Sequence record: NC_135728.1
DNA from: a phage
Direction: 5' to 3' (one strand)
Length of the DNA: 64,000 bases
The notes below the pieces were generated by a model. That model saw only the letters and a list, made by a program, of their open reading frames with translations, searched no databases and had not been told where the DNA came from. The first letter of the stretch is position 1. Every line of letters begins with the position of its first letter. This document shows, one piece after another, positions 1,526 to 30,114 of this stretch. Made by a program: the position numbers and the translations under genes.

Positions 1526-2102
1526 AGAAGTTGATAACTATATTATCACCTTTTTGCATAGCATCGACTTTTTGCTTAATTTTATAAATATCTCTGATAT
1601 GAAACCTACCCTTTGGGGATTGAGTTATTATCTTCATAGTATCCCCTGCGGCAATAGGTTTCCTAAGTCTTGGAGATATGCTTATAACAGCAGCCCCAAC
1701 ACCATCGCTGCGTACTGGAGCTGTTACTACTTTCAACTCATCGTTCACAGATATTTTATCACCAGCTCTGGCTATGTCTCTGTTTGGCTCCCACCCGACC
1801 GTCTTCAAAAAATCGTCGTTACCAGTAGGCCCAAGAGCGATTGGCTCATTAGCTGTTACCGAGTGACCGTAAGTTTTAATGAGAAATATGTTCCCATCTT
1901 TATATACCTGATCAACAAAGCTCTTAAGCTCTAACAACTGTGACTCGCTGATATTGGAAACCGTCAAAGTGCCTTTCCAGTTAGGTGTGGCATAGGTTAC
2001 TTTTTGCGTTTTACCTGTAAACGGACTTTTAAACGTAACAATATCTGCTAGCAGCTCCAATCTAATATCTGGAAGGTATCTAGGCCTTTCCCATAAAAAC
2101 AT
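1512..2102 (-). CDS. hypothetical protein (196 aa), tail-module associated
   Basis: ORF track; operon arrangement. Confidence 0.45.
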   Translation of the reverse strand: MFLWERPRYLPDIRLELLADIVTFKSPFTGKTQKVTYATPNWKGTLTVSNISESQLLELKSFVDQVYKDGNIFLIKTYGHSVTANEPIALGPTGNDDFLKTVGWEPNRDIARAGDKISVNDELKVVTAPVRSDGVGAAVISISPRLRKPIAAGDTMKIITQSPKGRFHIRDIYKIKQKVDAMQKGDNIVINFFEDF

Positions 2103-2164: not shown

Positions 2165-2194
2165 TAAACAAAAAGCCCCCGCCGAAGCGAGGGC
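2165..2194 (-). terminator. rho-independent terminator (GC hairpin with UUCG loop followed by U-run on minus strand)
   Basis: Plus-strand aaaaa-gcccccgccgaagcgagggc; on the minus strand a GC stem with TTCG tetraloop then T-run, just after the stop of the 2200-2532 gene. Confidence 0.6.
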
Positions 2195-2199: not shown

Positions 2200-2532
2200 T
2201 TAAAATACTTCCAAGGTAGACGCTGGAGGGTCGAACATGTTCAATTTCATCGACTCTACAACTTTTCCGCTTTTTGAGATAATGTTTTCTGCACCTTCGT
2301 CCAGAGTTAAAACATTAACATAAAACAATTCGCTTTTCTCACAAACAGGATAGACAACCATGTTGCCAAACTCATCTTCTGCCTCATAGGTATCTCCCGT
2401 CTCTGTGTAAACAAAGCCAGCAACCTCTACAAGAAGTGTGTTTTGCAACACCTCATTTTCGTAAAAGCCGATTTCATCCATGAAACCGTTGAAGTCCTCC
2501 CTGTCAGTGAACCCGAGGGTAAAGGTATTCAT
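2200..2532 (-). CDS. hypothetical protein (110 aa), possibly fibre assembly/tail accessory
   Basis: ORF track; start-stop overlap with upstream fibre gene at 2532. Confidence 0.45.
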   Translation of the reverse strand: MNTFTLGFTDREDFNGFMDEIGFYENEVLQNTLLVEVAGFVYTETGDTYEAEDEFGNMVVYPVCEKSELFYVNVLTLDEGAENIISKSGKVVESMKLNMFDPPASTLEVF

Positions 2533-5500
2533 TATTCAACACTCTCCATCATAAGTTGGGTATCTGTCAGCGCAGAGTTCCAAACTCTTATGTCCTTAAT
2601 ATGACCAAACAAATGTCTTTCTCCTGTTGCCGTTTGACCACCGATACGGATGAAAGCTCCTCCTGCCAGGAACTCCCAAGAAGACTGTGTTTCAGTGCTC
2701 ACCAGTCCGTTAGCAAAAGAGCAAGTTTTACCGTCTTCTTTTATCCTGAACCCCATCTTCAGTTTACGCGCTTTAGCCATCTCGTAGACACGTCTGTTTG
2801 ACCCTCCAATATCGCAGTATGGATACCCATCCTCTGCAATATTTGTTGCAGAACCAAACCCGAGAATAAAAGCTGCGCTCGTCTGGTGTCCTTCTGTGTC
2901 TATAACCCTAGGGGCTGCGTTAGGAGCTTTGCCCCAACCTCTCCAGTTAGCATCCACAGTAGCGGCGATAGTGAACGGTCTAGGTGCTAAGTTATCCGTC
3001 ATCGGGAATTTGCAAAGGTCTGCCGCTCTAGTTACAGGTGAAGATCCTGTGGGAATAAACGAGGACTCGCAAGAACCTAACTCAAATTGAGGTATTGCAA
3101 CATCAACCCAATCCCCTACAACATGCTGAGCACCTTCAGGTGGAGAAATCTGGAACTGGCACCCGATATTCTTGTCAGAGGCCACTGCCTCAAACGTAGC
3201 GGCAATCCTTACCCAAGCAGGTCCGGCTGTTTGCCATCTCTCAGCTTTTACTTTAATTCTCCCAGCTGCACCACCTGTTGTTTTAACTTCAAGTGTTGAC
3301 AGGTTAACATAAGCGTCACCTTGGAATACTGTGGTGGATCCGTCATACATGTCGAATCTTACACGTAATCTCTGGTTCGCTTTACCTCCCCTTGCAATAA
3401 TAGACCCAGTACAGAATTTCTCAGCACCTGTCACATCGGCACCTCTGGTGGCTGGAACTGTAGCAAGGTTTAACGCTGTTGTTTCCACACCGGATGCAGT
3501 GTTTACTGTAAATCTTGCACCTTTTGTGCCGTTGGTGTTTGTTACAGTACCACCAACAGTAATCTGTTGACTGGCTCCCCATTTACTAGGGTCTTCACTG
3601 TTAAGCATTAGGTTTGTCCTTTGCCCTTCAATAAGCAGACCATCTCTTTCAAACCGAGGATGATCGTTCTGAGCAGTAACCATCACACCGCGTTTAGAAA
3701 AGTATGTTGCTGTAGAAGGTCTGGAGAATACCATCTCTCCCTCACCAAGTGCAGGTTTTAAGTTGGAGGTCAAAGGTAACCAAAGATCAGGCATAACTGG
3801 GGCGGTTGTGCTTTCCGGGAAGCTTGTTCTCTTCCAAGGACTCCAAGCCATTCCACTACCAGTGTTATTATAATACCTTTCCCATGTTCCACCAAGGTAC
3901 ATCTTGTAGATCTGAATACAGCCCGTGCCCTCGTTAGCAGAGTTTCTAAGCACAATCAGCGTACCAGCCATCTGCTGTCCAGGCGGGTAATGTCTTTCAG
4001 CTGTAGCGTTAGCATTCGCCTCTTGATGGTAGATACCTTCACGATCTGCTTTATAATCGTTAAGGTCGCTATTCCCCAGTCCTTGACCACGGTGCTGAAT
4101 AACCTTGTTCCACGCTCTGTGATTTCCCTGCTCTATGGAACGGGTATATAGCTGATCTAATCGACCTGCTATCTGGAAAGCATAGTTCCCAGAGAATGCC
4201 ACAGACAACCCGCCAACAACCATCGAACCTTCAGGCCCGTTAACATTACCAGCCATTATTTTAGAAGGGTTGTTATTCCCGAACTGGTTGTTCCAGTCTG
4301 CACCTGTGTGGCATACAAAACCACCAGGAGCTGAGAAAGTGCCATCTTTGTTGAAGTTGTAGAATCTATGGGATGAACCAACAACATCTCTAACAATGAC
4401 CTGACCAGCCTCTGGGGTAGACCTGAACTCTGCCTGACCTTTGAGACCAGCACCATTACCGCATTTAGAGGTAAATGTACCGTTAGTTAAGTCCTCTGTC
4501 CCATCTGATGCACACTGGAATCCTGCATTAGAGAATAAAGCCTTTCTAGGGCTGCCGTAGCACAAATAGTCAAGACCGTCTGCCCATAGCTCGACTTTTG
4601 GCATATTCATTTTGCTCATCACAGCATAGCGTTCAGCAGTGCCTATATAGTGCCACTGTGTACCGCCGCCAGTGTAGAATCCAGAGGTACCTTTGAAGTC
4701 AACAATAGGTCTGGTGTTGGTATTGTTATCTCCAAGAACAGCAAGATTCAAATCTGCCGACTGGAGAGGTGCAACAAACTTAACCCCGTCCTGATTGTTT
4801 GTTACAGAACCAACCTGGTAGTCTTGTTCTTTGGTAAACACCTCTAAAACATTTCTACTTGCGTATATGCTGACAGGGAAAGCACGCGCCTCTGCATAGA
4901 AAGCAACATATTCTTGTTTACCCCTTGTTGGAGCAACCATCCCAAGAATTGCTTTTTCATTCTGGTAGAAATTTACTACTCCGTAGAAAGAGTCCCCTCT
5001 ATCTGTCCACCCACCAGTTCTATAATGACACTGTAAGGTAGCACAGTTCATGGGGTCACCACCAGATGACGACCTAGTAACTATGGTAATATCGGTGCCA
5101 GTAGCTGGAGCATAATACGGATCTGTTCTAACTATAATTGGGTAGTATTTCCCATCTTCCATCCCTGCGGTTCTTGGCAGCGTTAAGAAATCTTTTACGC
5201 CTGCAGCTATAGGAACTCTAAACAGATTCTGAGCCTCTGCCAAAGTTGTAGCCCCAGTACCACCTGCGGCTTGCGGTAAAGGTTCCCACTTGGCCTTCCG
5301 GTTGTTATAAACACCCCATTCCAGAGTGCCGTTACCGGATTCATCCATCCCGCCATCCCAGATGACCATCTTGGCGGCTTTCTTGGATCCCCAGAAGCCT
5401 CTTTCTGCTCCTGAACTACGGATCCACTCTCCGAGTCCCCAGTTTGTCAGCTGACCAGTAAGATCCCCAACCTGCATGTATTTAGGGCAGTCTAGCACGC

Positions 5501-6971
5501 CGTCTTCTCGGAAACCTAAATATCTATGGGTTTCAGATCCTTTTGCACCTTTGTGCAGGTGGATTGTCAACCAAGCCTTATTGTCGTTTCTTACCTCAGA
5601 ATAGATCCTATAACCATGCTCAAGAACACCATCAGTATTATATTTATCTCCATGGAGAATACCTGAGGCAGATTTAACATCTCCAGAGTATTGAGCTAAG
5701 TAAAGGTGCCCGAAGGCTGGTGAGTTGTTTTTACCAAGGCCGATATGAGATCTGAAGGTATCATCGTTACGAGGTCTGACCATCGGCTGCCATGCAGTCC
5801 ACTGATTTGTGTTGGCCTGATAGGTTCTCAAATACCAAACATCTACGTTAGAGAATGGATAGTATTCCTGACGACAACCTGCACCGCCGTTAGCATTGTT
5901 CTGCCAAACAATCAGGTGACCAGCACCAGAACCTGCTGGGTAACCATTTGCCTCGGTGGCATTGGCAGTCATGGGCTGGTAGTATACACCATCCTGATTG
6001 CCAGTCAAATTGTTAATATTGAAATTTGCCTCAAGGGCTGCACGTTGTTTATAAAAAGTTCCTAAATTAATACGTGCACCTGCGGCATCTCTGGCACCTG
6101 TACCACCTTGCTCTATAGCAAGAGGTTGCCATGAAGATGTCTGTTGGTTCCACATGCCCCAACGACCTGTTGCATCAAGCTGCAAGTACCCGGCTGTGTT
6201 TACATCATCACCAGCACGAATAACGGTTCTTGTTGGGTTGTTTGCCTCTAGGCGTTTAAATTCATCACGAAGTGCTATTCTTTTTGTTGTTGCTACACCG
6301 TTGGTTACTGCAATGGTGTACATAGCTCCGGAGGTAGCGCCACGGAAAATACCATCAACAGTTGTAGTATCACGACGAGATACCACACCGTTCAGGAATT
6401 TTTCACCAGCTGCTACGGAAGGGTAGTTAGTAGTTCTTCCCTCTTCAATAACTGCAGGGCCAACAAAATTGACAAGGTGAATAACATCGCCTACAGTGTG
6501 CACGGTACCAAAATCTACCCGCTGTGCAAGTGCTTTAGCATCGTTGGCGGTCTTAACTGTAACATCCATTACATCCTGGACAGACTGACCTTCAGCTGTC
6601 ATAATCATGGATGCGCCAATAGTTGATTCCAGCTCCTCTCTTAATGATGGATCTGTATATACCATCCATGCAGCATCAGTAATCCCACCATCGGAGTACG
6701 GTGAAGATAGTGCAGGAACGGTGTGCGGAAATTCGCCTTTCCAACGCAGGTAGAGGTCTTCCTCTTCGAAGTAGGCAAAATCCATTGGGCCGTTTAACTT
6801 ACCACCTTCCTTAAAGGAGATTACATGAGAAACAGTCCCATCCACATGGACAACATCGCCAATTTTTACACGACGAGTCAGGTCTGGTTGTTGAACAACC
6901 AGGTAATCATCCTCTGTCACTGCGGTAGTGGCAGGAAGAGATTCAATTCTGACAACTTTAATATCAGCCAT
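2532..6971 (-). CDS. long tail fibre protein (1479 aa)
   Basis: Very large ORF in tail module; internal duplicated segments (NNANGGAGCRQEYY / NSANEGTGCIQIYK); C-terminal lectin-like region; N-terminal motif shared with the 9606-10274 protein. Confidence 0.75.
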   Translation of the reverse strand: MADIKVVRIESLPATTAVTEDDYLVVQQPDLTRRVKIGDVVHVDGTVSHVISFKEGGKLNGPMDFAYFEEEDLYLRWKGEFPHTVPALSSPYSDGGITDAAWMVYTDPSLREELESTIGASMIMTAEGQSVQDVMDVTVKTANDAKALAQRVDFGTVHTVGDVIHLVNFVGPAVIEEGRTTNYPSVAAGEKFLNGVVSRRDTTTVDGIFRGATSGAMYTIAVTNGVATTKRIALRDEFKRLEANNPTRTVIRAGDDVNTAGYLQLDATGRWGMWNQQTSSWQPLAIEQGGTGARDAAGARINLGTFYKQRAALEANFNINNLTGNQDGVYYQPMTANATEANGYPAGSGAGHLIVWQNNANGGAGCRQEYYPFSNVDVWYLRTYQANTNQWTAWQPMVRPRNDDTFRSHIGLGKNNSPAFGHLYLAQYSGDVKSASGILHGDKYNTDGVLEHGYRIYSEVRNDNKAWLTIHLHKGAKGSETHRYLGFREDGVLDCPKYMQVGDLTGQLTNWGLGEWIRSSGAERGFWGSKKAAKMVIWDGGMDESGNGTLEWGVYNNRKAKWEPLPQAAGGTGATTLAEAQNLFRVPIAAGVKDFLTLPRTAGMEDGKYYPIIVRTDPYYAPATGTDITIVTRSSSGGDPMNCATLQCHYRTGGWTDRGDSFYGVVNFYQNEKAILGMVAPTRGKQEYVAFYAEARAFPVSIYASRNVLEVFTKEQDYQVGSVTNNQDGVKFVAPLQSADLNLAVLGDNNTNTRPIVDFKGTSGFYTGGGTQWHYIGTAERYAVMSKMNMPKVELWADGLDYLCYGSPRKALFSNAGFQCASDGTEDLTNGTFTSKCGNGAGLKGQAEFRSTPEAGQVIVRDVVGSSHRFYNFNKDGTFSAPGGFVCHTGADWNNQFGNNNPSKIMAGNVNGPEGSMVVGGLSVAFSGNYAFQIAGRLDQLYTRSIEQGNHRAWNKVIQHRGQGLGNSDLNDYKADREGIYHQEANANATAERHYPPGQQMAGTLIVLRNSANEGTGCIQIYKMYLGGTWERYYNNTGSGMAWSPWKRTSFPESTTAPVMPDLWLPLTSNLKPALGEGEMVFSRPSTATYFSKRGVMVTAQNDHPRFERDGLLIEGQRTNLMLNSEDPSKWGASQQITVGGTVTNTNGTKGARFTVNTASGVETTALNLATVPATRGADVTGAEKFCTGSIIARGGKANQRLRVRFDMYDGSTTVFQGDAYVNLSTLEVKTTGGAAGRIKVKAERWQTAGPAWVRIAATFEAVASDKNIGCQFQISPPEGAQHVVGDWVDVAIPQFELGSCESSFIPTGSSPVTRAADLCKFPMTDNLAPRPFTIAATVDANWRGWGKAPNAAPRVIDTEGHQTSAAFILGFGSATNIAEDGYPYCDIGGSNRRVYEMAKARKLKMGFRIKEDGKTCSFANGLVSTETQSSWEFLAGGAFIRIGGQTATGERHLFGHIKDIRVWNSALTDTQLMMESVE

Positions 6972-7006
6972 TCTTTCTCCTGAAAGGGGGCAAACAGCCC
7001 CCTATG

Positions 7007-9604
7007 TTAAAGGTACAATCCACGGTATTGAGCATAAAGGCCCAGACCGCGAAGGATTTCGCCAGAGTGATAGCCAACCGGATCAGAAACTGCCCAGCAG
7101 CCGTTTAAAACATTATCCCCATTAATGAAGTGGTGCTTTTGCAGTAGCTTCACACAGGCCTCTACAACAATATCTATTTGGGGTATTGTCTCTGAATACC
7201 CGCACAGACCTAGCCAGCAGCAACCTGCAAGCCATTCACCTACCACCCACATCCTGTCGCCTCTATCTTGATAAGAATATCCCCCAGAGGTGTTAAAGTC
7301 TGTAGGTAGGTTTCCTGAATGAGATGACTGGAATCTGTTGAGAAACCATGCCCATTTCTGGCAGAACAGGAATAATCTTTCATCAACAGGTTCTTTATGT
7401 TTCTTGAGCTCATAGATTGTGCGGCACGCAGCAACAAAAGATCTTGACTGGAGTTTAGAGTTATCTACCATCTCCCACCAACCAGTCAACCCTTCATTAC
7501 CTCTTTGCCATACATAACGTGAGGCAACTGGACCCTCTGTCTTAAATGTATTATTATACCAGACTTGAGCGTCATACAGAAAGCCTATTGTATTTGACAA
7601 TCTATGGCGATCTATGTTTTCTGCACCCATGCAGTATACTGCTGGGTATTGCATGCCAGGGTAGGGCCAATTTGGCTTTTCCTCTAAGAGATAGTTTTCC
7701 TTATCTATCACCTTTCCGGCAGGGAACACACCTGGTGTGTGCCTGTATGCACCTTGCTTGTAGTTTCTGACATAGCAATCACCAACCTTAGCGGTTGATT
7801 CTGTCTTGCTTGCCATCCATACGCTAAACCATATTAGATAAGCATCCCTATCTGCAATATAGAACTGCGGCAGCGTGTTTACGCAGTACAGATCAAACAA
7901 GCCATTGCCTATCTGCCTGTCGCTTAGGCTGAAATCTACAGAGGTGAGTCCCTTAGGATTAGCAAAGAAAGGTTTAATCTCTTCTTCGGTGTGATGAGGT
8001 TGTGTCGGATCTAGTTTGAAATCTCCTAGAGTAAGAGTTTCTGTTATCCATTGTCCATTAGTGGCATATAGATCAGCATACCATAACCACCTATCTTTGT
8101 CAAGAAATTTGACCCTTACCATCTCATCATCTGATCGATAAGTTACTGAGTTTAAAGAAATCTCTCTCCCAAAATTGAAAGTTACTTTACCTCTTGCTAT
8201 ATTACAACGGGTGAAGTTGTCAGAGTGGTTGTAAATGTCGGTATCATACTGCATACTAACACTAGCGCCACCGCTTACGACAATGTTTTCCTCTTTAGGT
8301 AAGAGATACGGATTACCGTCTTTACCAACTACCTCTACGAAATCAGTAACCTTGGCAACTATTTCTGTTACCTCTGCCCCTCCAAAAGGAACCCCTATCC
8401 TGTACTGTTTTTTGTTATTGTTGCCATCATTAAGGATGAAATGTGGCTGGAACAGAACCCCTTCTCCTCCGAAATTCATAACAATTTCAGCATCTCTGCC
8501 TATTTTGTATGTAGTCCCTTTTTGAATTATTTCGCAAGGCTGGCGTGCGTTCATTCTAAAATTGATATACCCGTCACTGTCCCTGCTCATGGCAGGAACT
8601 GTTCCTGCAACAAGGCAAGTACCATCTGTAAACGGTGCCTTAATCAACGTGGTCTTCCTAAACAGTTTGTCGTAGGCGTTTATATCACTGAAATTAAGCA
8701 ATTTGTTGTAAGACTGTTTAAACGCGGTGTAATACTTTTCCTCACCTGTCAAGGTGTAGAGTTGATAACAAGCGTCACACCACATTTCTTCCCCGTCCAA
8801 CTCTGGGGCCTGATTATCTGCAACCACGTTTATAGGATTTACAATTACAGGGGATCCTGCAGGTATCACCGATCCGCCCTGCTCTTGAGGTAATCTTACA
8901 CAATAGGTCACCTTGTGGCTGCCTGTAACACCCTTATCTTGTAATTGGATTGTGCCGAACTCTACAGACGTATGACCACTGTCGGCTATGCTACCGTTAG
9001 CCCAATAGCGGTTACCATCCCATGCTATGTACCACTCAACCCCCCAACTTAATCCGGATGTTGTCCAATCTGGGTTAGCATCTGTGCCACCGTAAACATC
9101 GGAGTCTACAGTATCTCTTCCTAACACACCGTTATACGCTTGGAATGCCTTGTCAAGGTATTCCCCCCATGTCGGAGATCCAGCTGGGATTTTTCCTCTA
9201 CCGTTGGTAAAAGACACCACCACATCTTTAAACCCACCATGTGATGGAACCCCATCTGTGGATAGAGGGTAGTGGGACAATCTTTGCATTTTACTTTCTA
9301 CTGCATATGCACCCAGAAGATGACTATTGTAAGCTTCCCAAGCATCTTTTGCCCTATCCAGATAGAAATCGCTTTTCGATGCCCTGTATGCTTCAATGTA
9401 TCCCAGAATCAACACAGCTTGGGACTCATGCATTGCCCAATCATTATTTATCTTATTACCTGCCCACCCTGCAGCTATAAGACCATCAGGGTTTACTAAC
9501 TTATTTTGAGTATGGGTGTTGGTAATACCTGTGTTGTTATCGAGGCACTTCCTGTGCCCCTCAATCATCTGAAATACGTTATCAATGTTGTGTTGAATAC
9601 GCAT
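7007..9604 (-). CDS. tail fibre/tailspike-like protein (865 aa), possible carbohydrate-active domain
   Basis: Large ORF between baseplate and fibre genes; composition suggests a glycoside-hydrolase-like fold (weak, by eye). Confidence 0.4.
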   Translation of the reverse strand: MRIQHNIDNVFQMIEGHRKCLDNNTGITNTHTQNKLVNPDGLIAAGWAGNKINNDWAMHESQAVLILGYIEAYRASKSDFYLDRAKDAWEAYNSHLLGAYAVESKMQRLSHYPLSTDGVPSHGGFKDVVVSFTNGRGKIPAGSPTWGEYLDKAFQAYNGVLGRDTVDSDVYGGTDANPDWTTSGLSWGVEWYIAWDGNRYWANGSIADSGHTSVEFGTIQLQDKGVTGSHKVTYCVRLPQEQGGSVIPAGSPVIVNPINVVADNQAPELDGEEMWCDACYQLYTLTGEEKYYTAFKQSYNKLLNFSDINAYDKLFRKTTLIKAPFTDGTCLVAGTVPAMSRDSDGYINFRMNARQPCEIIQKGTTYKIGRDAEIVMNFGGEGVLFQPHFILNDGNNNKKQYRIGVPFGGAEVTEIVAKVTDFVEVVGKDGNPYLLPKEENIVVSGGASVSMQYDTDIYNHSDNFTRCNIARGKVTFNFGREISLNSVTYRSDDEMVRVKFLDKDRWLWYADLYATNGQWITETLTLGDFKLDPTQPHHTEEEIKPFFANPKGLTSVDFSLSDRQIGNGLFDLYCVNTLPQFYIADRDAYLIWFSVWMASKTESTAKVGDCYVRNYKQGAYRHTPGVFPAGKVIDKENYLLEEKPNWPYPGMQYPAVYCMGAENIDRHRLSNTIGFLYDAQVWYNNTFKTEGPVASRYVWQRGNEGLTGWWEMVDNSKLQSRSFVAACRTIYELKKHKEPVDERLFLFCQKWAWFLNRFQSSHSGNLPTDFNTSGGYSYQDRGDRMWVVGEWLAGCCWLGLCGYSETIPQIDIVVEACVKLLQKHHFINGDNVLNGCWAVSDPVGYHSGEILRGLGLYAQYRGLYL

Positions 9605-9605
9605 C

Positions 9606-10274
9606 TTAGATAGCTCCTGCGATAATCAGTGCTCCGTACCAAGTTAACCCGTTGTCGTAGGTTTCCAACTTGAAAATGTCTGTTGCACCAGCTGTAAATG
9701 TTAGGATAGGATCTCTTCCGTAGGCCCATTTAACATTATCAGGCCAATAGACTTTGTTGCCGCCAGCGGTCTGAGTAATGCATACGGTTATAGTTCTCGC
9801 CACCCCTTCAAGACCTTCTGTTTGATTTTCAAAAGAGATTGTGGTATTTGAAGTTAGTCGAACTTTAAAGGTGTCTGCAACTTCAAGATCCATATCAAGC
9901 TGACCACCGATAGATCCGTAATCAACTATCCTGCCAGAAGAAGTTGCAGCAAGCTCACCAAAAACAGACCATGCTTTTGCAGACACACCCCCAGCACCCT
10001 CTACAGTGGAGTCTGGGAGGATTATTTTAGGATAATCCCCGTTCCACGTGTAGTAGCGCTTGGTCTCTGGATCATAGGCAAAGTCCTTCTTGCTCTTAAG
10101 ATAACCACCCTCTGTGAAATAGATTATTTTAGTAATGCTGAGATCGTTGACAACATCATCAATCTTAGCCTTTCTTGTCCCATCAGTCTGGTTGACAACC
10201 AAGAAGTCATCACTCAGGACTGTTTCTGCATCTTCAAGATCTGGAATTGGTATTGTAGGATAAGCTACAGCCAT
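9606..10274 (-). CDS. tail fibre-related protein (222 aa) sharing the N-terminal attachment motif of the long fibre
   Basis: N-terminus LSDDFLVVNQTDGTRKAKIDDVV parallels DDYLVVQQPDLTRRVKIGDVV of the 1479-aa protein. Confidence 0.5.
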   Translation of the reverse strand: MAVAYPTIPIPDLEDAETVLSDDFLVVNQTDGTRKAKIDDVVNDLSITKIIYFTEGGYLKSKKDFAYDPETKRYYTWNGDYPKIILPDSTVEGAGGVSAKAWSVFGELAATSSGRIVDYGSIGGQLDMDLEVADTFKVRLTSNTTISFENQTEGLEGVARTITVCITQTAGGNKVYWPDNVKWAYGRDPILTFTAGATDIFKLETYDNGLTWYGALIIAGAI

Positions 10275-10283: not shown

Positions 10284-11000
10284 TTAGTTAACATCAATAG
10301 CACGACCAGACTGGTTGGCAATAGCCTCATCATTGGAGGTAGCAATAACACCAGAGTATTCGCGCTCATCTGGAGCAAGCGTCCAGGTATTGCGGTTAAT
10401 GGTTTGTTCTGCCTCAGTCATCAGCAGATCTTTATCCTGAGTCAACAGAGAGCCTACAGGGATCGGGTTTTCCATCTCAGGACCAGCATACTGGTTCCAC
10501 CATGTGGCATCTCCGGTTCTAGGCAATCTGAAGTTAATCAGGTAGTACAGTTTATTAGCCCACTTAATCCAACCTTCATCATCACAGAGAGAGGTTGTCC
10601 CAGAATCAGGCTGTGGGTAGGTAAACTGATCAAGACCTACGAAAGCCAGCCTTACAATCTCGTTCTCTTTGGTAACAACCTCAAAGAACGCTTGGTATGT
10701 TCTCGATCTTCGATCCATAGTAGACTGGAAGTTTATGATGTTTAGCACATCCGGCTCTTGTCTTGCCACTTCCATGATCTTGTTATCAAGAACAGTCTTC
10801 ATGACCTTCTTACTGAGAAAGTCCATATAAGGGAAGCCAAACAACTCGTCAAAGTACCAGCTCCCCTTCCACGTATTAAACCTCATCCACAAGCGCTGGC
10901 GCAGACTTACCTGGTTTGAATCTATCAACTCAAGACCTTTGTCTATCGCCAAATCGCCTGTCTGTGGGTCCATCAATATATCACTATAAAGCGTAGCCAT
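10284..11000 (-). CDS. baseplate protein (238 aa), putative
   Basis: ORF track; position between central spike and fibre genes. Confidence 0.4.
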   Translation of the reverse strand: MATLYSDILMDPQTGDLAIDKGLELIDSNQVSLRQRLWMRFNTWKGSWYFDELFGFPYMDFLSKKVMKTVLDNKIMEVARQEPDVLNIINFQSTMDRRSRTYQAFFEVVTKENEIVRLAFVGLDQFTYPQPDSGTTSLCDDEGWIKWANKLYYLINFRLPRTGDATWWNQYAGPEMENPIPVGSLLTQDKDLLMTEAEQTINRNTWTLAPDEREYSGVIATSNDEAIANQSGRAIDVN

Positions 11001-11012: not shown

Positions 11013-11690
11013 TTAGTGCGGTCCACTTGTCTCGCCATCAGGGCAAGAGTGGGTATGACCTTTATATTCTGCATAGAATGAATCCAAATCCACACCAGCA
11101 GCAGTTATAATTCTACCAGATGGGTCTATTGTGGCACCATTCATTCTGATATTTCCATCCACAGCAGCTCGCAAATTGGCAGCACCGTTAGTGAAAGAGA
11201 ACTCCCCGCTGCTGTCGCACCGTAATGTCCCACCAGGTGTTTGAAGCTCAAAATCGCCAGAAGGTGTCAGTTTAAAATAAACCCTATCATTCCATAACTC
11301 TACGTTATCAGGATCGATCTGTAAAGCGTTCGAGTCTGAATGAACAGAGGTGATTGCCCACCCAGGAAACAGGCCGTGAGTTTGTTGATCATCGTTATTG
11401 TTTTCATTTCTCTCTGAAAACTGCAATCCTACAACATCTCCAGCCTTAATAGGAAGTGTTAACCTTGCCTTTCCGCTGTTTGCAGACATCACCTGAATTG
11501 GAACGTCATAGATAAGAGGGTATCTCTCTACATCCCCGTCATCAAACGTAGTTTCAGCTATTGGCTGCACGGCTGCAGAAGGTATACTGTAGTCTACACT
11601 GACAACCCTGGCCCTGATACTGGTGTGGTAGTCCCTCATTATTTTTTCTATAAAAGATCTTACAGCAGCATCTTTCCTATTTATTGCCAT
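11013..11690 (-). CDS. baseplate central spike protein (gpV/gp5-like) with C-terminal HxH apex
   Basis: 225 aa; N-terminal OB-fold-like region (GDVVGLQFSERN); C-terminal GHTHSCPDGETSGP resembles metal-binding spike tips of P2 gpV-type spikes. Confidence 0.6.
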   Translation of the reverse strand: MAINRKDAAVRSFIEKIMRDYHTSIRARVVSVDYSIPSAAVQPIAETTFDDGDVERYPLIYDVPIQVMSANSGKARLTLPIKAGDVVGLQFSERNENNNDDQQTHGLFPGWAITSVHSDSNALQIDPDNVELWNDRVYFKLTPSGDFELQTPGGTLRCDSSGEFSFTNGAANLRAAVDGNIRMNGATIDPSGRIITAAGVDLDSFYAEYKGHTHSCPDGETSGPH

Positions 11691-12694
11691 TATACCTCCT
11701 CAGTTTTGTCAACAACTCCACCCACTGTTTCCCCAAGGCCAAGCTCTGTAGTGTAATCACCACCTTCTATGGTGCCCTTATGATGCACCGTGATCACCTT
11801 ATAGAAGCCTGTATATTGCTTGCTTTTAAGATAAATAGTGGACTCTGGGAGGATAGCTCCGTTAAGGCATGTGGTTACAGTAAGGCCAACATCCTCTCTC
11901 GGGTTTTTCTTTTTCTTTTTAGATGTCGAACCACCTTTGGCAGCAGCTTTAGCTCTTCGTTTTTTAGCAGGTTCTGGGTTTTTAGGAGTAGGAGATCCGT
12001 GCATCCCAGACTCTGCACTTATTTCAAACACAGAGTCCTTGAACCTTTTTCCAACCTTGGTCCAATACAAAGCCCCATCCTGAACGCTAAATGTTGAGTT
12101 GGTCAGCCTTGCAAACCTGCGGAGGTTCTCTGCAGTGTTTCCAGAGAAAGCCATAGAGTATTGCAAAGTCTGGTTTCCAAAACCAACAACCCTACCCTTT
12201 GGCAAGTTCATATCCTTCAGTAGGTCATTAAGCACAGAGTTCAGAGGTGTGCCTTTCTGATAAGATCTTGTGCTTTGGCACTTAATGATGTTCTCAGTGC
12301 CATCCCCAAAGATGAACTTAGTTTTTCTGGTCGGACCTTCCCATCTGTCTTCAACAAACTCCACAGTTCCGGAGAATATCAACTGGTTCTCATTATCATA
12401 GCCAGCTTCAAACATAACTGCAAGGGCATCAGCCTGATGCATATCCAAATAGTTAACTGTATCGTCAGACAGGTTGTAAACTGTCACATAACCTTTGTTT
12501 GGCTCTTTGGTATTGTCCTTTTGTATGTCAAACTCTATATTGGCAGCACCAGTGTCCGAGCTAACTTCATAAACTCCGGAATCACTCTCCCCTTTCTTTT
12601 CAACAGATTTTGGGATATTGGTTTTTGATTTGCCGCCATGTTCTACAGGACGACCAAACAATAATCGCCATGTTCTACGTCTGTACTCTGCCAT
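11690..12694 (-). CDS. baseplate protein (334 aa), putative
   Basis: ORF track; start-stop overlaps both neighbours; contains a basic tract AKKRRAKAAAKGGSTSKKKKKN. Confidence 0.4.
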   Translation of the reverse strand: MAEYRRRTWRLLFGRPVEHGGKSKTNIPKSVEKKGESDSGVYEVSSDTGAANIEFDIQKDNTKEPNKGYVTVYNLSDDTVNYLDMHQADALAVMFEAGYDNENQLIFSGTVEFVEDRWEGPTRKTKFIFGDGTENIIKCQSTRSYQKGTPLNSVLNDLLKDMNLPKGRVVGFGNQTLQYSMAFSGNTAENLRRFARLTNSTFSVQDGALYWTKVGKRFKDSVFEISAESGMHGSPTPKNPEPAKKRRAKAAAKGGSTSKKKKKNPREDVGLTVTTCLNGAILPESTIYLKSKQYTGFYKVITVHHKGTIEGGDYTTELGLGETVGGVVDKTEEV

Positions 12695-13074
12695 TATTCT
12701 AACCCTTGCTGTTCCTTGTAAAGATCAACCGGGGTGCCGTATACAAGCTGTAGCTCAGATCTCGCCCCAAGGTTATATCTTCCAACCCTGCCCCAATATT
12801 GATCGTCTTTAAACGACAGCGCCATCAGTCTACCTTTCGGTAAATCATCTCTGTAATGCAGTCCGTCTAAAATATCTTGACAAGCTGTTACTTTTCTGGT
12901 TACTAAAGGGCTGTCACCTACTGGACCAAGAGATAACCACCAGGACTCATCCCTCTCATTCCATTGCATACGCATTTCATACGTTTCATTGTCTAAAACA
13001 ACACGCATGGTTTGATCAGGAAAGCCATCAATGTCCCACACAAAAGTGATTACACACCAATCTTTAAGCTCCAT
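12694..13074 (-). CDS. hypothetical baseplate/tail protein (126 aa)
   Basis: ORF track; operon position. Confidence 0.4.
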   Translation of the reverse strand: MELKDWCVITFVWDIDGFPDQTMRVVLDNETYEMRMQWNERDESWWLSLGPVGDSPLVTRKVTACQDILDGLHYRDDLPKGRLMALSFKDDQYWGRVGRYNLGARSELQLVYGTPVDLYKEQQGLE

Positions 13075-13085: not shown

Positions 13086-13997
13086 TTATTTTCCGTTAAC
13101 TTTGTCGTAGTTTCCCTGCTCTGACGGAACTATAGTGGAAGGTCTTCCATATTCCTGATAGTACCAATCGGCAGCGGACTGGGTAACACCGTTTTCATCT
13201 GTCCACATCATAGACTTGTATGGCTGCCACTCTTCTGCAGCATTTGTGGATGCAGTGTCTGCAAATGCCCCTGTATCTCTCTTGTTACCTACATTACTAC
13301 CATTCTTACAATCGTTGACAGCACCTTTTTGCTGGGTCTTCCCAACTTTTTTAGGATTGCTGTACACTGTTGCATTAACAACTTTGTTCAAGTAAAATGT
13401 GCGGAATTCTGTAAGTTCTACATCAAACACCATTGCAGCTCCTTCACCAACAGACTTGTTGGCAGAAAGGCTGGTTATGATATAGTTCTCAAGGAGTCTC
13501 TCCTCGGTAACCAAGGAAACCAACTGTCGCTTATTGATAATCTCAGTCAAAGCCTCCAATGCAGCTCCTGGTCTCATAGATGCTGCAGGGTTTTTAGAGT
13601 CAGTATTCCTATCAATGTAGTTTTGCTCATAAATTATATGTGGGGATGTATTTACCCTGCCAGTAAAAGAAAATACACCATCTTTAATTACAGCGTGGTC
13701 TGACATGGTAGATTTATCTTCCACTGCAAAACCAGTTTTATCAACAGAATGTTTGAAAGAATAGTTCTCAACCTGGTCGAAGATAATGGCAAGATCGTTA
13801 GTAAAGTTTTTACCCTTCATCTCCGTATTGCGACCACCATAGTTAAGACCGCTGACAAACATAGTGTACTTTACATCACCTTCAGTTTGCTGCTCAGCCT
13901 TTTCAGCCTTTGGAGACTTAACCTCTTGAGGCTTGTACAGATCTTTTTCATCAACTATATTATTTGGCATAACCTCTCCAGGACACTCCGATACCAT
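13086..13997 (-). CDS. hypothetical tail protein (303 aa), immediately downstream of tape measure
   Basis: ORF track; synteny with tail modules. Confidence 0.4.
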   Translation of the reverse strand: MVSECPGEVMPNNIVDEKDLYKPQEVKSPKAEKAEQQTEGDVKYTMFVSGLNYGGRNTEMKGKNFTNDLAIIFDQVENYSFKHSVDKTGFAVEDKSTMSDHAVIKDGVFSFTGRVNTSPHIIYEQNYIDRNTDSKNPAASMRPGAALEALTEIINKRQLVSLVTEERLLENYIITSLSANKSVGEGAAMVFDVELTEFRTFYLNKVVNATVYSNPKKVGKTQQKGAVNDCKNGSNVGNKRDTGAFADTASTNAAEEWQPYKSMMWTDENGVTQSAADWYYQEYGRPSTIVPSEQGNYDKVNGK

Positions 13998-14074: not shown

Positions 14075-16414
14075 TTACCAAAGATCTGTTGACATAAAGT
14101 TAATATCTTTGCTATTCTCCCACTCAAGTTTTGCATCAAGTATTTTGCTAAACTCACCTTCATCTATAGAAATGGTGATTTTACCATCGCTGATCTCCAA
14201 AGGTAACATTTCCATGGTTCTCAGTTGAGAGGCAAAACCAGGGCCACCAGGTAGCGGAAGGGTTCCACCAGGTAAAGTGTCTAGAGGATTAACAAACCCG
14301 TTGCCACCCGATACTATATCTTTGCGGATCATGTCACTAATAGTATCCAGCTGTTGATTTCTCTCACTGAAAGGGTTGAAACGATCATTAACCATAGCCC
14401 CAGCACTCAATAATGTCCCAAGTATCCCCAACTTACCTAACATACCGGTACCTTTGATGCCTGGTGCTTTTATTCCACCACCTTTTCCTGCTGCGCCACC
14501 TACAGAACCCCCTGTGGTGATGGCACCAGCGCCAGCAGCTCCAGCTGCACCTTTCAGGGTGCTAAGGAACTTAAAAGTTTTTACAAGCATGGATGCCATG
14601 ACAAACCCTTTTGTAAGAGCGTGCACTACCAGCATAATGGCAGCAGCATACCCTGCCCATTTGGCAGTGCTGAAGGTGTCATGCAGCTCTTCGGAATACT
14701 CCTTCGTCTTAGCTGTTATGAACCCCCATTTGATGCCCCACTCAAGGAAAAACAGGCGGATCTTAACTATAGTGTTGTTTAGCTCACCAACAACCCAGTT
14801 AAGGCCTCTAATAAATCCGCTAACAAAATCACCTGAGGCATCCCACACAAATTGCAGAGTCTCACCTGTGCGGATCAAGGTGTAGTAGAACTCTGTCAAT
14901 TCATCTGCCCAACGGGTGAACAGTTTCTGACGAGACAGTTCTATGAAGGTTTTCAGTCTGTTTTCTGCCAGTACGTTAGACTTCTGCATTCTTTCATAAC
15001 CAGCTGCAGATGCCTCGTTCATGTACTTAGCCACATACTTCATGATCTTAGCTGTTTTAACCTCACCTTTCTTCATCATATCCATGAACTGATCCATGGA
15101 GAGTTCAGAAAGACCAAAAGCCTCTTTGGTGGCCTTGATAAAAGGTTCGTATGCACCAGGTAATGCTTCAGCAAGTTGTTGCTTCAGTTCTTCGGACATT
15201 ACTTGTCCCTTGCCTAGCATCTGTTGGATTGCCATGATACCACGCTGGTATTTTACCTCATCGGCACCATAAGCAGCAGCATACTGGGAGTATGCAGAGA
15301 ACAGCTCATGAACCTCCTGATTTGTCATCTGGTTTTTGGCGTTTACCGCCATCTGGGCGTAACCTTGAAGACCAGATTTGAGATCAAAACCAAGACGCAT
15401 AGCCTCTTGCTGGACAAACGCAACCTCACTGTTGGCTTTGTTTGGATCTCCAGTAACAGCAGTAAGAGCAGCACTTGCACCCTCCATCATGTGACCGGAT
15501 CTGTTAACAGCAGTAAATCCAGAAAAAGCCGTATACGCAGCTGTTGCATTAATAACAGATCTACGTAAGTCTCTCATGGCATCGCCTAGTGTAAGCGTTT
15601 GGTTGGTGGCGCTTTTAAACCCAGACTGCAGCGCTGACAGGTGGGCGTTAAAGGTTGACTTCTTCATCTCCCCGCGAGCAAACCTGGACTCTAACTCTGA
15701 GTATCCTGGCAAGCTTCCACGGAATCCGGCCCCATACTTGGCAGAAAGTCTTATCGCGGAGTTGTAGAGGTGGGTTCTCCTTGCCTCACGATCCGACATA
15801 AGCTTATTATCCATACCAGCTTTACTGTCTCTTCTTAGCTGTCTATGATAACGATTCATAGCGGCTGTCTGAGCTTTCACAAGGTTAGGGTCGGAAGCCA
15901 CACCACCCATATTAGGGTTACCGGGGATATATTTGAAAGATTTGGCATTAGCCAAAACTCTTGCCTTAGGTGCCTTATAACCACCGTAAGACACTGGTGC
16001 AGATTTGGCAGCCTTTTTGGCCTCTTTAGCTTGCTGCTGGTAGAACTTACGCATCCTAGCCATTTCTGGATTTTTAGCGGTAAGATTACCTACAGCTTGT
16101 TTACGTCTCGCATTCTCCCTACGTTCTATTGCAGCCCTTACTGCAGCCTCTTTCTTGGCCTGTGCTACGCTCTCTCTGTGCAGTTTAGCATTTGCCTGAG
16201 ATTGCTGTCTGGCAACCCTCTGCATTGTCTGCTGGGTTTTAACAGCTACCGCCTGCCATCTACTCATGGGGTTGGCTGAGTTAAAATCCTCGCCCAGTTT
16301 CCTGAACTCCCTCCCAATACTGCGAATTTTCTCTACAGCTTTTTTGTAGGAGGAGTTCTCTATCTCAAAGCCAATCTTGTTGACTGTTGTGGCAACTATT
16401 TTGTTTGTAGCCAT
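14075..16414 (-). CDS. tail tape measure protein (779 aa)
   Basis: Long, Ala/Lys/Gln-rich helical protein with a Gly-rich hydrophobic C-terminal segment; follows tube and chaperone genes. Confidence 0.8.
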   Translation of the reverse strand: MATNKIVATTVNKIGFEIENSSYKKAVEKIRSIGREFRKLGEDFNSANPMSRWQAVAVKTQQTMQRVARQQSQANAKLHRESVAQAKKEAAVRAAIERRENARRKQAVGNLTAKNPEMARMRKFYQQQAKEAKKAAKSAPVSYGGYKAPKARVLANAKSFKYIPGNPNMGGVASDPNLVKAQTAAMNRYHRQLRRDSKAGMDNKLMSDREARRTHLYNSAIRLSAKYGAGFRGSLPGYSELESRFARGEMKKSTFNAHLSALQSGFKSATNQTLTLGDAMRDLRRSVINATAAYTAFSGFTAVNRSGHMMEGASAALTAVTGDPNKANSEVAFVQQEAMRLGFDLKSGLQGYAQMAVNAKNQMTNQEVHELFSAYSQYAAAYGADEVKYQRGIMAIQQMLGKGQVMSEELKQQLAEALPGAYEPFIKATKEAFGLSELSMDQFMDMMKKGEVKTAKIMKYVAKYMNEASAAGYERMQKSNVLAENRLKTFIELSRQKLFTRWADELTEFYYTLIRTGETLQFVWDASGDFVSGFIRGLNWVVGELNNTIVKIRLFFLEWGIKWGFITAKTKEYSEELHDTFSTAKWAGYAAAIMLVVHALTKGFVMASMLVKTFKFLSTLKGAAGAAGAGAITTGGSVGGAAGKGGGIKAPGIKGTGMLGKLGILGTLLSAGAMVNDRFNPFSERNQQLDTISDMIRKDIVSGGNGFVNPLDTLPGGTLPLPGGPGFASQLRTMEMLPLEISDGKITISIDEGEFSKILDAKLEWENSKDINFMSTDLW

Positions 16415-28102: not shown

Positions 28103-28421
28103 CGTTTATGTTCGGGCAAGGTCGCTAGTCTTGCCCCGCCATTTTCAGGCAGCTGCATGTCTCCATGCAGACCAGACTATATCTTATAAGCGACAACAAC
28201 CGCTTACCCTCCCGTTTCGAATCGCTTGATTCTACGTCTCTCGACTAGTCGTTGAACGTTCATCCTCTCGGATGCTTCGCTGCGGATTATCTAAATTAAC
28301 ACACTGTTACCCTACCTTCGATCTCTCTTCGAAGCCTCTATCATGTTACCATGACAGGTTGGTGGTGTCAATAATAAAGATTTCCCCGCAATTAGGGAGG
28401 TTTTACGAGAGCTGCAAATTA
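28103..28421 (-). ncRNA. group I self-splicing intron (ORF-less, about 319 nt) interrupting the large terminase gene
   Basis: Minus-strand sense contains the four conserved group I core elements: P AATTGCGGGGAAA (plus 28381-28400 region), Q AATCCGCAGC (28279-28288), R GTTCAACGACTAGTC (28243-28257), S AAGATATAGTCTGG (28172-28185); in-frame stop right after the 5' splice site; intron ends in G. Confidence 0.8.
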
Positions 28422-30027: not shown

Positions 30028-30038
30028 TATTTATAATT

Positions 30039-30113: not shown

Positions 30114-30114
30114 A

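What the first reader, a model, noticed from the sequence alone, without database searches (positions are those of the whole stretch)
9606..10274. Shared N-terminal attachment motif on two receptor-binding-type proteins; internal duplication in the long fibre
The 222-aa protein and the 1479-aa fibre (2532-6971) begin with the same approximately 25-residue motif (DDF/YLVV-Q-D-TR--KI-DVV), consistent with a common baseplate-docking domain on interchangeable distal modules. The long fibre also contains an internally duplicated domain (…NNANGGAGCRQEYY… / …SANEGTGCIQIYK…). Such modularity is where host-range switching occurs.
Basis: seen in the sequence. Interest (0 to 1): 0.45.

Follow-up and report, generated by a model that had tools for sequence, protein, structure and literature searches.

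The report
Shared anchor on two phage tail arms
Two tail proteins of an rV5-like E. coli phage do share an N-terminal attachment domain of a known family, but the small one looks like an adaptor that holds the neighbouring sugar-cleaving-type protein, not a receptor binder itself, and the long fibre's modularity is already published.

Summary
The 222-aa protein (9606-10274, -) and the 1479-aa fibre (2532-6971, -) share about 100 N-terminal residues, not 25: 39% identity, E=1e-18. Both match Pfam Tail_spike_N above threshold. The fibre's internal duplication is also real (residues 316-399 vs 967-1048, E=1.6e-11).

The window is a Vequintavirus, 97.5% identical to phage MiataMamis. These are the orthologues of rV5 gp43 and gp41, both detected in rV5 virions.

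The fibre does carry exchangeable distal parts on a constant anchor:
- Within the genus, the swap point is at the second knob copy.
- Between genera, it lies just after the anchor.
- This was already described for BASEL phages, with cryo-EM support.

The 222-aa protein is different. Its C-terminal 114 residues form a conserved beta-sandwich (XD1-like in a moderate-confidence model) that sits at the very end of very diverse fibre or anchor proteins. It is always followed by a tightly coupled gene. Every full-length homologue of the next gene that had upstream sequence (67 of 67 viral loci, plus a Burkholderia prophage) is preceded by this domain. That next gene encodes the 865-aa, six-hairpin-glycosidase-like protein.

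I infer an adaptor-plus-cargo pair, which is not shown. This is an ordinary, known kind of system, with a modest new lead.

The parts
9606..10274 (-). Gene for the 222-aa protein (rV5 gp43 orthologue), the proposed adaptor
   Evidence: ORF. PHROG 7760 over its full length, E=2.6e-118. 95-99% identical in 112 phage records. rV5 gp43 (222 aa) was detected in virions (PMC3606486).
9960..10274 (-). Shared N-terminal module of the 222-aa protein (residues 1-105): a ~45-residue N-terminal part plus Tail_spike_N (residues 51-104)
   Evidence: BLASTP E=1e-18 against the fibre. Pfam PF18668, 40.4 bits. PDB sequence matches to tailspike N-termini: 9occ, 8x8m, 5w6f, 4oj5.
10149..10211 (-).
   Evidence: Translation. 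It is the core of the 46-residue N-terminal profile that also hits GAP31_221, GAP31_223, phAPEC8 gp098 and, as a non-seed sequence, the phAPEC8 gp095 endosialidase (E=4.8e-8).
9609..9950 (-). [quoted passage not shown]
7007..9604 (-). Gene for the 865-aa protein (rV5 gp42 / phi92 gp141 orthologue), six-hairpin-glycosidase-like, the proposed cargo
6986..7002 (-). GC-rich hairpin (GGGGGC-TGTTT-GCCCCC, then TTTC) between the 865-aa and 1479-aa genes
   Evidence: Sequence. The same position is annotated as a terminator in phage Murica. The consensus scan did not call it.
2532..6971 (-). Gene for the 1479-aa long fibre (rV5 gp41 position, lectin-tip allele)
   Evidence: ORF. PHROG 6578. Annotated as lateral tail fibre protein in BASEL phages. 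Equivalent to the RBPseg TC12 fibre with a lectin-like head (PMC12143355).
6657..6971 (-). Shared N-terminal module of the fibre (residues 1-105)
   Evidence: At least 99% identical in 111 phage records. PDB matches 9occ_G (E=2.5e-10), 9d84, 9lna, 4qnl and 4oj5.
5775..6026 (-). Duplicated domain, copy 1 (residues 316-399), knob-like
   Evidence: Self-BLAST E=1.6e-11 against copy 2. A profile of the two copies weakly hits the R1/R2 pyocin fibre knob (6cl5/6cl6, E=0.6-2) and 6eu4 (E=0.4).
3828..4073 (-). Duplicated domain, copy 2 (residues 967-1048), the recombination junction and variable knob
   Evidence: Only 40-74% identical to the alternative alleles, with unrelated sequence after residue ~1050. 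DNA breakpoints at gene nucleotides 2801-2987.
5979..6176 (-). Second internal repeat, copy 1 (residues 266-331; WQPLAIEQGGTGARDAAGARINLG)
   Evidence: Self-BLAST E about 3e-6 against residues 547-610.
5142..5333 (-). Second internal repeat, copy 2 (residues 547-610)
2535..3734 (-). Distal tip of this allele (residues 1080-1479)
   Evidence: phmmer match to the RcGTA head spike fibre 6tb9 (E=2.2e-8, residues 1080-1322). Weak Laminin_G_3 / ConA-like match at the C-terminus. Present in 35 phage records.
2200..2532 (-). 110-aa ORF overlapping the fibre stop codon by 1 nt; travels with the lectin-type tip
   Evidence: TAATG overlap. 97/110 identical in CarlMeissner, which has the same tip. Absent from DrSchubert, CM1 and Murica, which have the S74-chaperone tip. 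PHROG 1361, function unknown.
2175..2194 (-). Intrinsic-terminator-like hairpin after the 110-aa ORF
   Evidence: 8-bp stem with 7 GC pairs, followed by TTTTTGTTT.

Best explanation
The window is the tail module of an rV5-like Vequintavirus. Two gene pairs each appear to build one arm of the host-recognition apparatus, and both arms start with the same kind of N-terminal attachment 'head'.

**Arm A.** The 222-aa protein is head plus a 114-residue C-terminal beta-sandwich and nothing else. I propose it is an adaptor. Its head fixes it to the baseplate periphery. Its C-terminal domain holds the product of the next, translationally coupled gene, the 865-aa protein. That protein has an (alpha/alpha)6 glycosidase-like barrel and CBM-like sandwiches, and no anchor domain that Pfam or the solved-structure sequence search detects.

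**Arm B.** The 1479-aa fibre has the head in cis. It is followed by shaft, knob copy 1, further domains, knob copy 2 and a lectin-like tip. A 110-aa accessory gene is coupled to it.

**Host-range variation.** Within the genus it arises by replacing knob 2, the tip and the accessory gene. Between genera it arises by replacing everything after the head.

**Shown:** the homologies, the duplications, the gene linkage, the allele breakpoints and the fold of the 865-aa model.

**Inferred:** physical binding of the 222-aa C-domain to the 865-aa protein; that the head is the docking element; and where it docks.
For: **Shared head**
- 39% identity over 99 residues, E=1e-18. Both pass the Pfam Tail_spike_N cut-off.
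- The module aligns with Kuttervirus TSP1 from about residue 50. That is the 'head' which docks on TSP4 in CBA120 (PMC8825819).
- The N-terminal 46-residue profile hits exactly two ORFs per genome in three genera. One is phAPEC8 gp098, where it is fused directly to the C-domain without Tail_spike_N.

**Adaptor role**
- The C-domain lies 0-10 residues from the stop codon in ORFs of 131-1171 aa with unrelated N-terminal parts. In the 75 loci with a next gene on the contig, that gene starts within -37 to +17 nt, except in L080.
- The small protein's N-terminus is the T7 tail-fibre anchor PF03906 in podoviruses.
- 43 of 80 loci found through the C-domain have an 865-like gene directly downstream.
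- In the reverse test, 67 of 68 loci found through the 865-like gene have a C-domain ORF ending just upstream. The exception is a partial weak match.
- The same pairing holds in a Burkholderia prophage at 26% identity.
- C-domain sequences group by downstream partner family: 50% identity within families against 31% between. The nearest C-domain from a different upstream architecture has the same partner family in 58 of 72 cases.
- The stop and start codons are 1 nt apart, with the RBS inside the 222-aa gene. A hairpin separates this pair from the fibre gene.
- gp41, gp42 and gp43 are all virion proteins in rV5.
- The C-domain model matches connector-type XD1 domains.

**Fibre modularity:**, and the published cryo-EM comparison of lectin-head and S74-tip alleles.
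Against: - No direct evidence of a 222-aa/865-aa complex was obtained.
- Gene adjacency and co-segregation are also expected from plain linkage.
- The same beta-sandwich fold occurs as a glycan-binding module (CpaA, StcE) and as the distal knob of the Pa223 capsid spike. It also occurs in tandem copies inside large proteins. The C-domain could therefore bind sugar itself.
- 37 of the 80 C-domain loci have other downstream genes or none on the contig.
- No C-domain/865-like fusion protein was found.
- The 865-like N-terminus is not more conserved than the rest of the protein.
- The structural models are of moderate quality: mean pLDDT 50.5 for the 222-aa protein, with the N-terminal half below 50, and 60.9 for the 865-aa protein.
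- (alpha/alpha)6 enzymes are usually monomers, so stoichiometry on a trimeric adaptor is unclear.
Confidence: 0.6

Rival explanations
1. Both proteins are receptor-binding proteins on a common baseplate-docking domain. The C-terminal domain of the 222-aa protein is itself a small glycan-binding tip. The 865-aa protein attaches to the virion independently, and the genes are neighbours only because they act together.
Against: The 222-aa protein is 95-99% conserved across 112 phage records, whereas the true tip of the fibre varies. The 865-like gene was never found without the domain upstream (67 of 67). The 865-aa protein has no Pfam family and no solved-structure sequence match, so no recognisable anchor. 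The small protein's N-terminus changes with virion type while the C-domain and 865-like gene stay together.
Confidence: 0.25
2. The shared N-terminal module is only a trimerisation or neck module inherited from a common tailspike ancestor, not the attachment element. The two proteins attach by other means, for example through a different partner protein each.
For: In CBA120, TSP2 and TSP4 carry the head downstream of separate anchor and XD domains. The head alone is therefore not always the virion anchor (PMC8825819). The match to Kuttervirus TSP1 starts at about residue 50 of that protein.
Against: In both window proteins the module starts at residue 1, with nothing upstream. In phAPEC8 gp098 the first 43 residues are the only part besides the C-domain. 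At least 99% conservation of the fibre N-terminus across 111 records fits a contact with conserved baseplate parts.
Confidence: 0.1
3. The N-terminal similarity and the internal repeat are chance or low-complexity matches.
For: None found.
Against: E=1e-18 and E=1.6e-11 with composition-based statistics. Independent Pfam hits above the curated cut-off. The same module recurs in more than 1300 phage records.
Confidence: 0.01

Closest known systems
Branched tailspike complexes of CBA120 (TSP1-4) and G7C (gp66/gp63.1)
   Different: Here the head is at residue 1, with no anchor or XD2/XD3 domains detected. The phage is a Vequintavirus, not an Ackermannviridae or N4-like phage. The docking partner of the head is unknown. 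The proposed platform is XD1-like, whereas in CBA120 XD2 and XD3 do the binding and XD1 does not (PMC8825819).
Adaptor or 'truncated first RBP' systems of podoviruses: K1-5/K1E/SP6 adaptor and Klebsiella phage KP34 gp49 (Latka et al. 2019, PMC6872550)
   Same: A small protein with a virion anchor and a C-terminal docking domain but no enzymatic or receptor domain, plus a second protein that carries the activity and lacks an anchor. Podovirus relatives of the 222-aa protein have exactly the PF03906 anchor plus C-domain architecture.
   Different: No sequence similarity between the C-domain and the SP6 or KP34 adaptor C-termini. Those are T4 gp10 XD2/XD3-like, this one is XD1-like. Here the cargo gene is always immediately downstream, whereas in SP6 and KP34 it is several genes away.
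Vequintavirinae long fibre class TC12 of the RBPseg atlas (Bas49 EmilHeitz, Bas54 MaxBurger) and rV5 gp41
   Same: Same protein family as the 1479-aa fibre. The same two alleles (lectin-like head, or S74 peptidase tip) were published with low-resolution cryo-EM. The paper notes a mobile pseudo-domain present in two copies. BASEL noted the allelic variation.
   Different: Nothing substantive. The window allele is 90-93% identical at DNA level to published ones. That the published duplicated pseudo-domain D42 equals the knob repeat found here is my inference.
Knob domains of R-type pyocin fibres and T4 gp34 (PMC6116203)
   Same: A domain of about 85 residues duplicated within a fibre. [quoted passage not shown] The motif YP..AG.L.V....Q.Y....W.PW is shared with R2 Knob2 in the alignment.
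   Different: The sequence match is not significant on its own (E=0.6-2). The fold was not predicted here. The copies are about 570 residues apart, not in tandem.
phi92 gp140/gp141 (PMC13450770)
   Different: The related phAPEC8 small protein lacks the Tail_spike_N domain (157 aa). phi92 itself was not fetched. The phi92 paper tested gp140 alone as a fibre candidate and left fibre II unassigned.

Membership tests
Pfam PF18668 Tail_spike_N (TSP1/Gp66 N-terminal 'head') | Profile score above the curated gathering cut-off | tested here: met
   Both proteins score 40.4 bits against a 25-bit cut-off, E=3.1e-10. Sequence matches to solved tailspike N-termini.
Pfam PF18668 Tail_spike_N (TSP1/Gp66 N-terminal 'head') | Lies upstream of a receptor-binding or catalytic body in the same chain | tested here: inconclusive
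   Met for the 1479-aa fibre. The 222-aa protein has only a 114-residue beta-sandwich after it.
Pfam PF18668 Tail_spike_N (TSP1/Gp66 N-terminal 'head') | Trimeric head that docks on a partner protein | not testable with these tools
   No multimer prediction or experiment was available. Inferred from CBA120 (PMC8825819).
Adaptor / anchor-branch RBP systems (SP6, K1-5, KP34 type) | Small protein with an N-terminal virion anchor and no enzymatic or receptor-binding body | tested here: met
   Head plus C-domain only. No further Pfam or PDB sequence match. Podovirus relatives carry PF03906 plus the C-domain.
Adaptor / anchor-branch RBP systems (SP6, K1-5, KP34 type) | Docking domain homologous to T4 gp10 domains 2/3 | tested here: not met
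   No similarity to the SP6 gp38 or KP34 gp49 C-termini (scores below 0 bits). The fold hits are the XD1 set instead. It works like an adaptor but is not a member of this domain family.
Adaptor / anchor-branch RBP systems (SP6, K1-5, KP34 type) | Second protein lacks an anchor and depends on the first | tested here: inconclusive
   No Pfam family or PDB sequence match for the 865-aa protein. Obligate upstream C-domain gene in 67 of 67 loci. Dependence itself was not tested.
Adaptor / anchor-branch RBP systems (SP6, K1-5, KP34 type) | Physical complex of the two proteins on the virion | not testable with these tools
   All three proteins are in rV5 virions, but no interaction data exist.
Fibre knob domain (R-pyocin Knob1/2, T4 gp34) | Sequence or fold match to solved knob domains | tested here: inconclusive
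   The profile of the two copies hits 6cl6 (E=0.57), 6cl5 (E=2.1) and 6eu4 (E=0.4), with a shared motif. No Pfam hit. The fold was not predicted.
Fibre knob domain (R-pyocin Knob1/2, T4 gp34) | Duplicated within one fibre, with the distal copy variable | tested here: met
   Two copies, E=1.6e-11. Copy 2 is 40-74% identical between alleles, while the region before residue ~950 is mostly above 90% identical in 50-residue windows.
Six-hairpin (alpha/alpha)6 glycoside hydrolase-like proteins (865-aa protein) | (alpha/alpha)6 barrel fold | tested here: met
Six-hairpin (alpha/alpha)6 glycoside hydrolase-like proteins (865-aa protein) | Catalytic residues and enzymatic activity | not tested
   The active site was not examined. 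No family-level sequence match.
Vequintavirus (rV5-like) gp43 / gp42 / gp41 orthologues | Near-identical DNA and conserved gene order from tape measure to fibres | tested here: met
   97.5% identity over 16.5 kb to MiataMamis. 112 records cover at least 80% of the query. Same gene order in CarlMeissner and rV5_ev146. gp43 is 222 aa in rV5.

The most novel reading that the evidence does not exclude
The C-terminal 114 residues of the 222-aa protein represent a large family of fibre-end docking domains that Pfam does not curate (at least 3843 cluster representatives). The family acts as a universal joint. It couples whatever virion anchor or shaft lies upstream to whatever distal protein is encoded by the next gene. 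Anchors seen include the T7-type anchor, the Tail_spike_N head and long shafts. Twelve partner families were seen in 72 loci. In rV5/phi92-like phages the small protein plus the 865-aa glycosidase-like protein would then form one of the baseplate fibres that cryo-EM studies have not been able to assign, such as fibre II of phi92.
Probability: 0.4. Interest if true: 0.55.

Novelty: new member of a known kind. Interest (0 to 1): 0.3.

Why it matters
The finding as written matters little. Shared N-terminal anchors and swappable tips are the textbook organisation of phage receptor-binding proteins. For this phage group the fibre alleles are already published.

Three points are useful:
1. **Engineering boundary.** Anyone retargeting rV5-like phages should cut at knob 2, near residue 950-1050 of the fibre, and carry the 110-aa gene along. 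Cutting after the anchor is the wrong place.
2. **Annotation.** The 222-aa 'tail fiber' or 'sialidase domain' protein is more likely an adaptor for the neighbouring glycosidase-like protein.
3. **A testable candidate.** The adaptor-cargo pairing gives the fibre densities left unassigned in the phi92 and BASEL Vequintavirinae cryo-EM maps a concrete candidate. It also points to a very common fibre-joint domain that domain databases do not yet describe.

Tried and rejected
- **Sequence homology to known adaptors.** The C-domain profile scores below 0 bits on the SP6 gp38 and KP34 gp49 C-termini. Rejected.
- **Rosetta-stone fusions.** No fusion of the C-domain with an 865-like protein among the 169 proteins held, including the 150 best C-domain hits.
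- **Pfam family for the C-domain or the duplicated knob.** Nothing, even at E<=10.
- **A specially conserved N-terminal docking peptide in 865-like proteins.** Conservation is fairly even along the protein, so no argument follows.
- **Word-index protein searches.** They returned only 4, 14 and 6 proteins, so both AF2 alignments were shallow. The N-terminal half of the 222-aa model is unusable (pLDDT below 50).
- **Literature.** Schwarzer et al. 2012 on phi92 is not held. It may already discuss these N-termini. A search for six-hairpin virion proteins found nothing. The Septuagintavirus and phiR8-01-related papers say nothing on adaptors.
- **gp10-type XD platform in the baseplate.** A Pfam scan of the rest of the fibre cluster found none. 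It found only Baseplate_J, N4-type sheath protein domains and lambda J domains.
- **Chance similarity.** Rejected.

Full report
**What the window is.** The first 16.5 kb are 97.5% identical to Escherichia phage MiataMamis and 94-96% identical to about a hundred other rV5-like phages of the genus Vequintavirus. The gene order on the minus strand matches annotated relatives:

| Window coordinates | Product |
|---|---|
| 14075-16414 | tape measure |
| 13086-13997 | tube initiator |
| 12694-13074 | plug |
| 11690-12694 | hub |
| 11013-11690 | spike |
| 10284-11000 | sheath initiator-like |
| 9606-10274 | the 222-aa protein |
| 7007-9604 | the 865-aa protein |
| 2532-6971 | the 1479-aa fibre |
| 2200-2532 | a 110-aa ORF |
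| 534-2102 | a lambda-like Dit / gpK-like cassette |

By position and length these are the orthologues of rV5 gp43 (222 aa), gp42 and gp41. All three were detected in rV5 virions by mass spectrometry. The N-terminus of gp43 was already noted to resemble a tailspike N-terminus (PMC3606486).

**Checking the observation.** BLASTP aligns residues 8-105 of the 222-aa protein with residues 7-105 of the fibre: 39/99 identical, one gap, E=1e-18.
- Both proteins pass the curated threshold of Pfam Tail_spike_N (PF18668) at residues about 46-104.
- Both match the N-terminal parts of solved tailspikes, including CBA120 TSP1, TSP3 and TSP4.
- No other ORF in the window or in the rest of the fibre cluster carries the module. 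Complete Vequintavirus genomes show two places each.
- The internal duplication in the fibre is confirmed: residues 316-399 vs 967-1048, 39% identity, E=1.6e-11. A second repeat is residues 266-331 vs 547-610, E about 3e-6.

**The shared module has two layers.**
- Residues about 50-123 occur in more than 1300 phage records, in tailspikes of many genera.
- The first 45 or so residues are rarer. A profile of them hits exactly two ORFs per genome in Vequintavirus, Seunavirus (GAP31) and Phapecoctavirus (phAPEC8).
- The phAPEC8 hits include, as a non-seed sequence, the endosialidase gp095 (E=4.8e-8).
- In phAPEC8 the small protein gp098 (157 aa) has those 43 residues fused directly to the C-terminal domain, with no Tail_spike_N part. 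The first 43 residues may therefore be the minimal attachment element. This is inference.
- The whole module aligns with Kuttervirus TSP1 starting near its residue 50, that is, with the TSP 'head'. In CBA120 the head of TSP1 docks on the XD3 platform of TSP4 (PMC8825819).

**The 222-aa protein is probably an adaptor.**

*Distribution of the C-terminal domain.* Residues 109-222 match nothing in Pfam but match 3843 cluster representatives in an exhaustive HMMER search.

*Annotated phages.* The domain ends small 'tail fiber' proteins in GAP31 (223 aa), phAPEC8 (157 aa), the Felix O1-like phiEa21-4 (244 aa) and the podovirus phiR8-01 (269 aa). In each case the next gene is a homologue of the 865-aa protein (E=2e-166, 9e-180, 2e-59 and 2e-100). 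In podoviruses the N-terminal part is the T7 tail-fibre anchor PF03906.

*Forward scan.* A scan of IMG/VR with a C-domain pattern gave 80 loci.
- The ORF carrying the domain could be read in 79. In 78 of these the domain lies 0-10 residues from the stop codon; the exception is L083.
- These ORFs are 131-1171 aa long and have unrelated N-terminal parts.
- In the 75 loci with a next gene on the contig, that gene starts within -37 to +17 nt, except in L080 (343 nt).
- The next gene is 865-like in 43 loci. In the others it belongs to other partner families (12 families in all) or is not on the contig.

*Reverse scan.* A scan with an 865-like pattern gave 71 loci, 68 of them with upstream sequence.
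- In 67 of these an ORF ending in the C-domain stops between 4 nt inside the 865-like match and 57 nt before it.
- The one exception is a partial, weak match.
- About 45 of these loci belong to one closely related group. The upstream ORFs still fall into at least 11 length classes, on contigs from 17 kb to 348 kb.

*Further support.*
- A Burkholderia prophage with a 26%-identical 865-like gene has a 473-aa upstream gene ending in the domain (E=1e-22).
- C-domain sequences group by downstream partner, not by upstream architecture.
- In the window the two genes are 1 nt apart, with the ribosome-binding site of the second inside the first. A GC-rich hairpin separates the pair from the fibre gene.

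**Folds.**
- The AF2 model of the 222-aa protein is confident only for the C-domain (pLDDT 70-80).
- Foldseek's best match for it is the Pa223 capsid spike (E=5e-4). The phi92 cryo-EM paper reports the same hit for gp140.
- The fold therefore belongs to a class used both in baseplate-fibre connectors and as glycan-binding modules. It does not by itself decide between a docking platform and a sugar-binding tip.
- That agrees with earlier annotations as a glycosidase-like tail protein.

**The fibre.**
- Within Vequintavirus only 34 of 121 records share the whole gene. The others share nucleotides 1 to 2801-2987.
- At protein level the alternative alleles (1266-1270 aa) are mostly above 90% identical up to residue ~950. 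They are 40-74% identical across knob copy 2 and unrelated afterwards, ending in an S74-type intramolecular chaperone.
- The window allele ends in about 400 residues that match the RcGTA head spike fibre (E=2.2e-8). It also has a weak ConA-like signal.
- The 110-aa ORF that overlaps the fibre stop codon is present with this tip (CarlMeissner, 97/110 identical). It is absent with the S74 tip.
- The knob profile weakly matches the R1/R2 pyocin knob (E=0.6-2). There, too, Knob2 and the lectin-like tip are the variable parts (PMC6116203).
- All of this is essentially published. BASEL reported the allelic variation. The RBPseg atlas showed by cryo-EM that Bas49 and Bas54 fibres differ by a single C-terminal replacement, lectin-like head against S74. 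It also noted a mobile pseudo-domain present in two copies.

**Mechanism proposed.** Two arms carry paralogous heads.
- *Arm A* is the 222-aa adaptor carrying the 865-aa glycan-processing or glycan-binding protein.
- *Arm B* is the long fibre with its exchangeable knob 2, tip and accessory gene.
- The heads dock on the baseplate periphery or on each other.
- In phi92, fibre I sits on the wedge protein gp145 and fibre II on the base of fibre I. Fibre II is still unassigned.
- The homologies, linkage and breakpoints are shown. The contacts are inferred.

**Comparison with known systems.** Functionally this is the anchor-adaptor logic known from CBA120/G7C, K1-5/SP6 and KP34. The N-terminal head is a true member of Tail_spike_N. 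The C-terminal docking domain is not a member of the T4 gp10 XD2/XD3-type docking domains used by SP6 and KP34. It is an uncurated family.

**Verdict.** The feature is an ordinary instance of a known kind, and the fibre part is already described. The adaptor-cargo pairing, and the breadth of the C-terminal domain family, are modest new leads that need a complex prediction or a deletion experiment.

Noticed in passing
window 28153-28457 (-): A group I intron (Rfam RF00028, 79.4 bits, E=1.6e-18) interrupts the terminase large subunit gene. The exons are roughly 28419-28847 (with the Walker A motif) and 26981-28069. No homing-endonuclease ORF lies inside it here, whereas rV5_ev146 has a joined terminase CDS with an endonuclease VII gene.
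   Followed up: partly
window 29951-30764 (-): A cluster of seven tRNA-like genes (Pro, Met, Thr, Ser, Tyr, Arg). One is a 99-nt element at 30196-30294 that ARAGORN calls with a four-base anticodon and that Rfam does not call. Rfam also misses the Ser gene.
   Followed up: no
window 534-2102 (-), continuing left of the window (L001 8935-12534): A siphovirus-type tail-tip cassette sits inside this myovirus fibre cluster: a Dit-like 196-aa protein, a 188-aa tail protein, a 145-aa cell-wall-hydrolase-like protein and then a 1199-aa lambda J-like protein with Phage_Tail_Tip and Ig_J domains.
   Followed up: partly
window 2200-2532 (-): The 110-aa ORF (PHROG 1361, function unknown) overlaps the fibre stop codon by 1 nt. 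It occurs only with the lectin-type fibre tip, not with the S74-chaperone tip. It may be a tip-specific assembly factor or accessory protein.
   Followed up: partly
window 2535-3734 (-), fibre residues 1080-1322: The distal part of the fibre matches the head spike fibre Rcc01080 of the Rhodobacter gene transfer agent (PDB 6tb9, E=2.2e-8). The same module is therefore used on a capsid in one system and on a tail fibre in another.
   Followed up: no
IMG/VR loci L039-L086 (e.g. L044, L053, L061, L071): The same C-terminal domain ends fibre shafts of 131-1171 aa. It is followed, within a few nucleotides, by genes of at least 11 other families, for example products starting MSNIKKLMM..., MAYSTNPFS... 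or M..GR..LM... This suggests a general fibre joint. The domain is absent from Pfam.
   Followed up: partly
phage records MG065635-MG065690: 18-23 unannotated GenBank records named 'Campylobacter phage' with host Campylobacter jejuni are about 95% identical to this E. coli Vequintavirus over 16.5 kb. This looks like mislabelling or contamination, not a true host.
   Followed up: no
window about 33500-35000: GC skew changes sign and coding strand switches from minus to plus near 34 kb. This marks the boundary between the structural module and a divergently transcribed module.
   Followed up: no
L001 4569-6641 (left of the window in related phages): The 690-aa fibre protein of the cluster carries the N4 non-contractile tail sheath protein domains (PF23844 and PF23845, E=4e-80). 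This fits published use of the ECA/NGR glycan by these phages.
   Followed up: no
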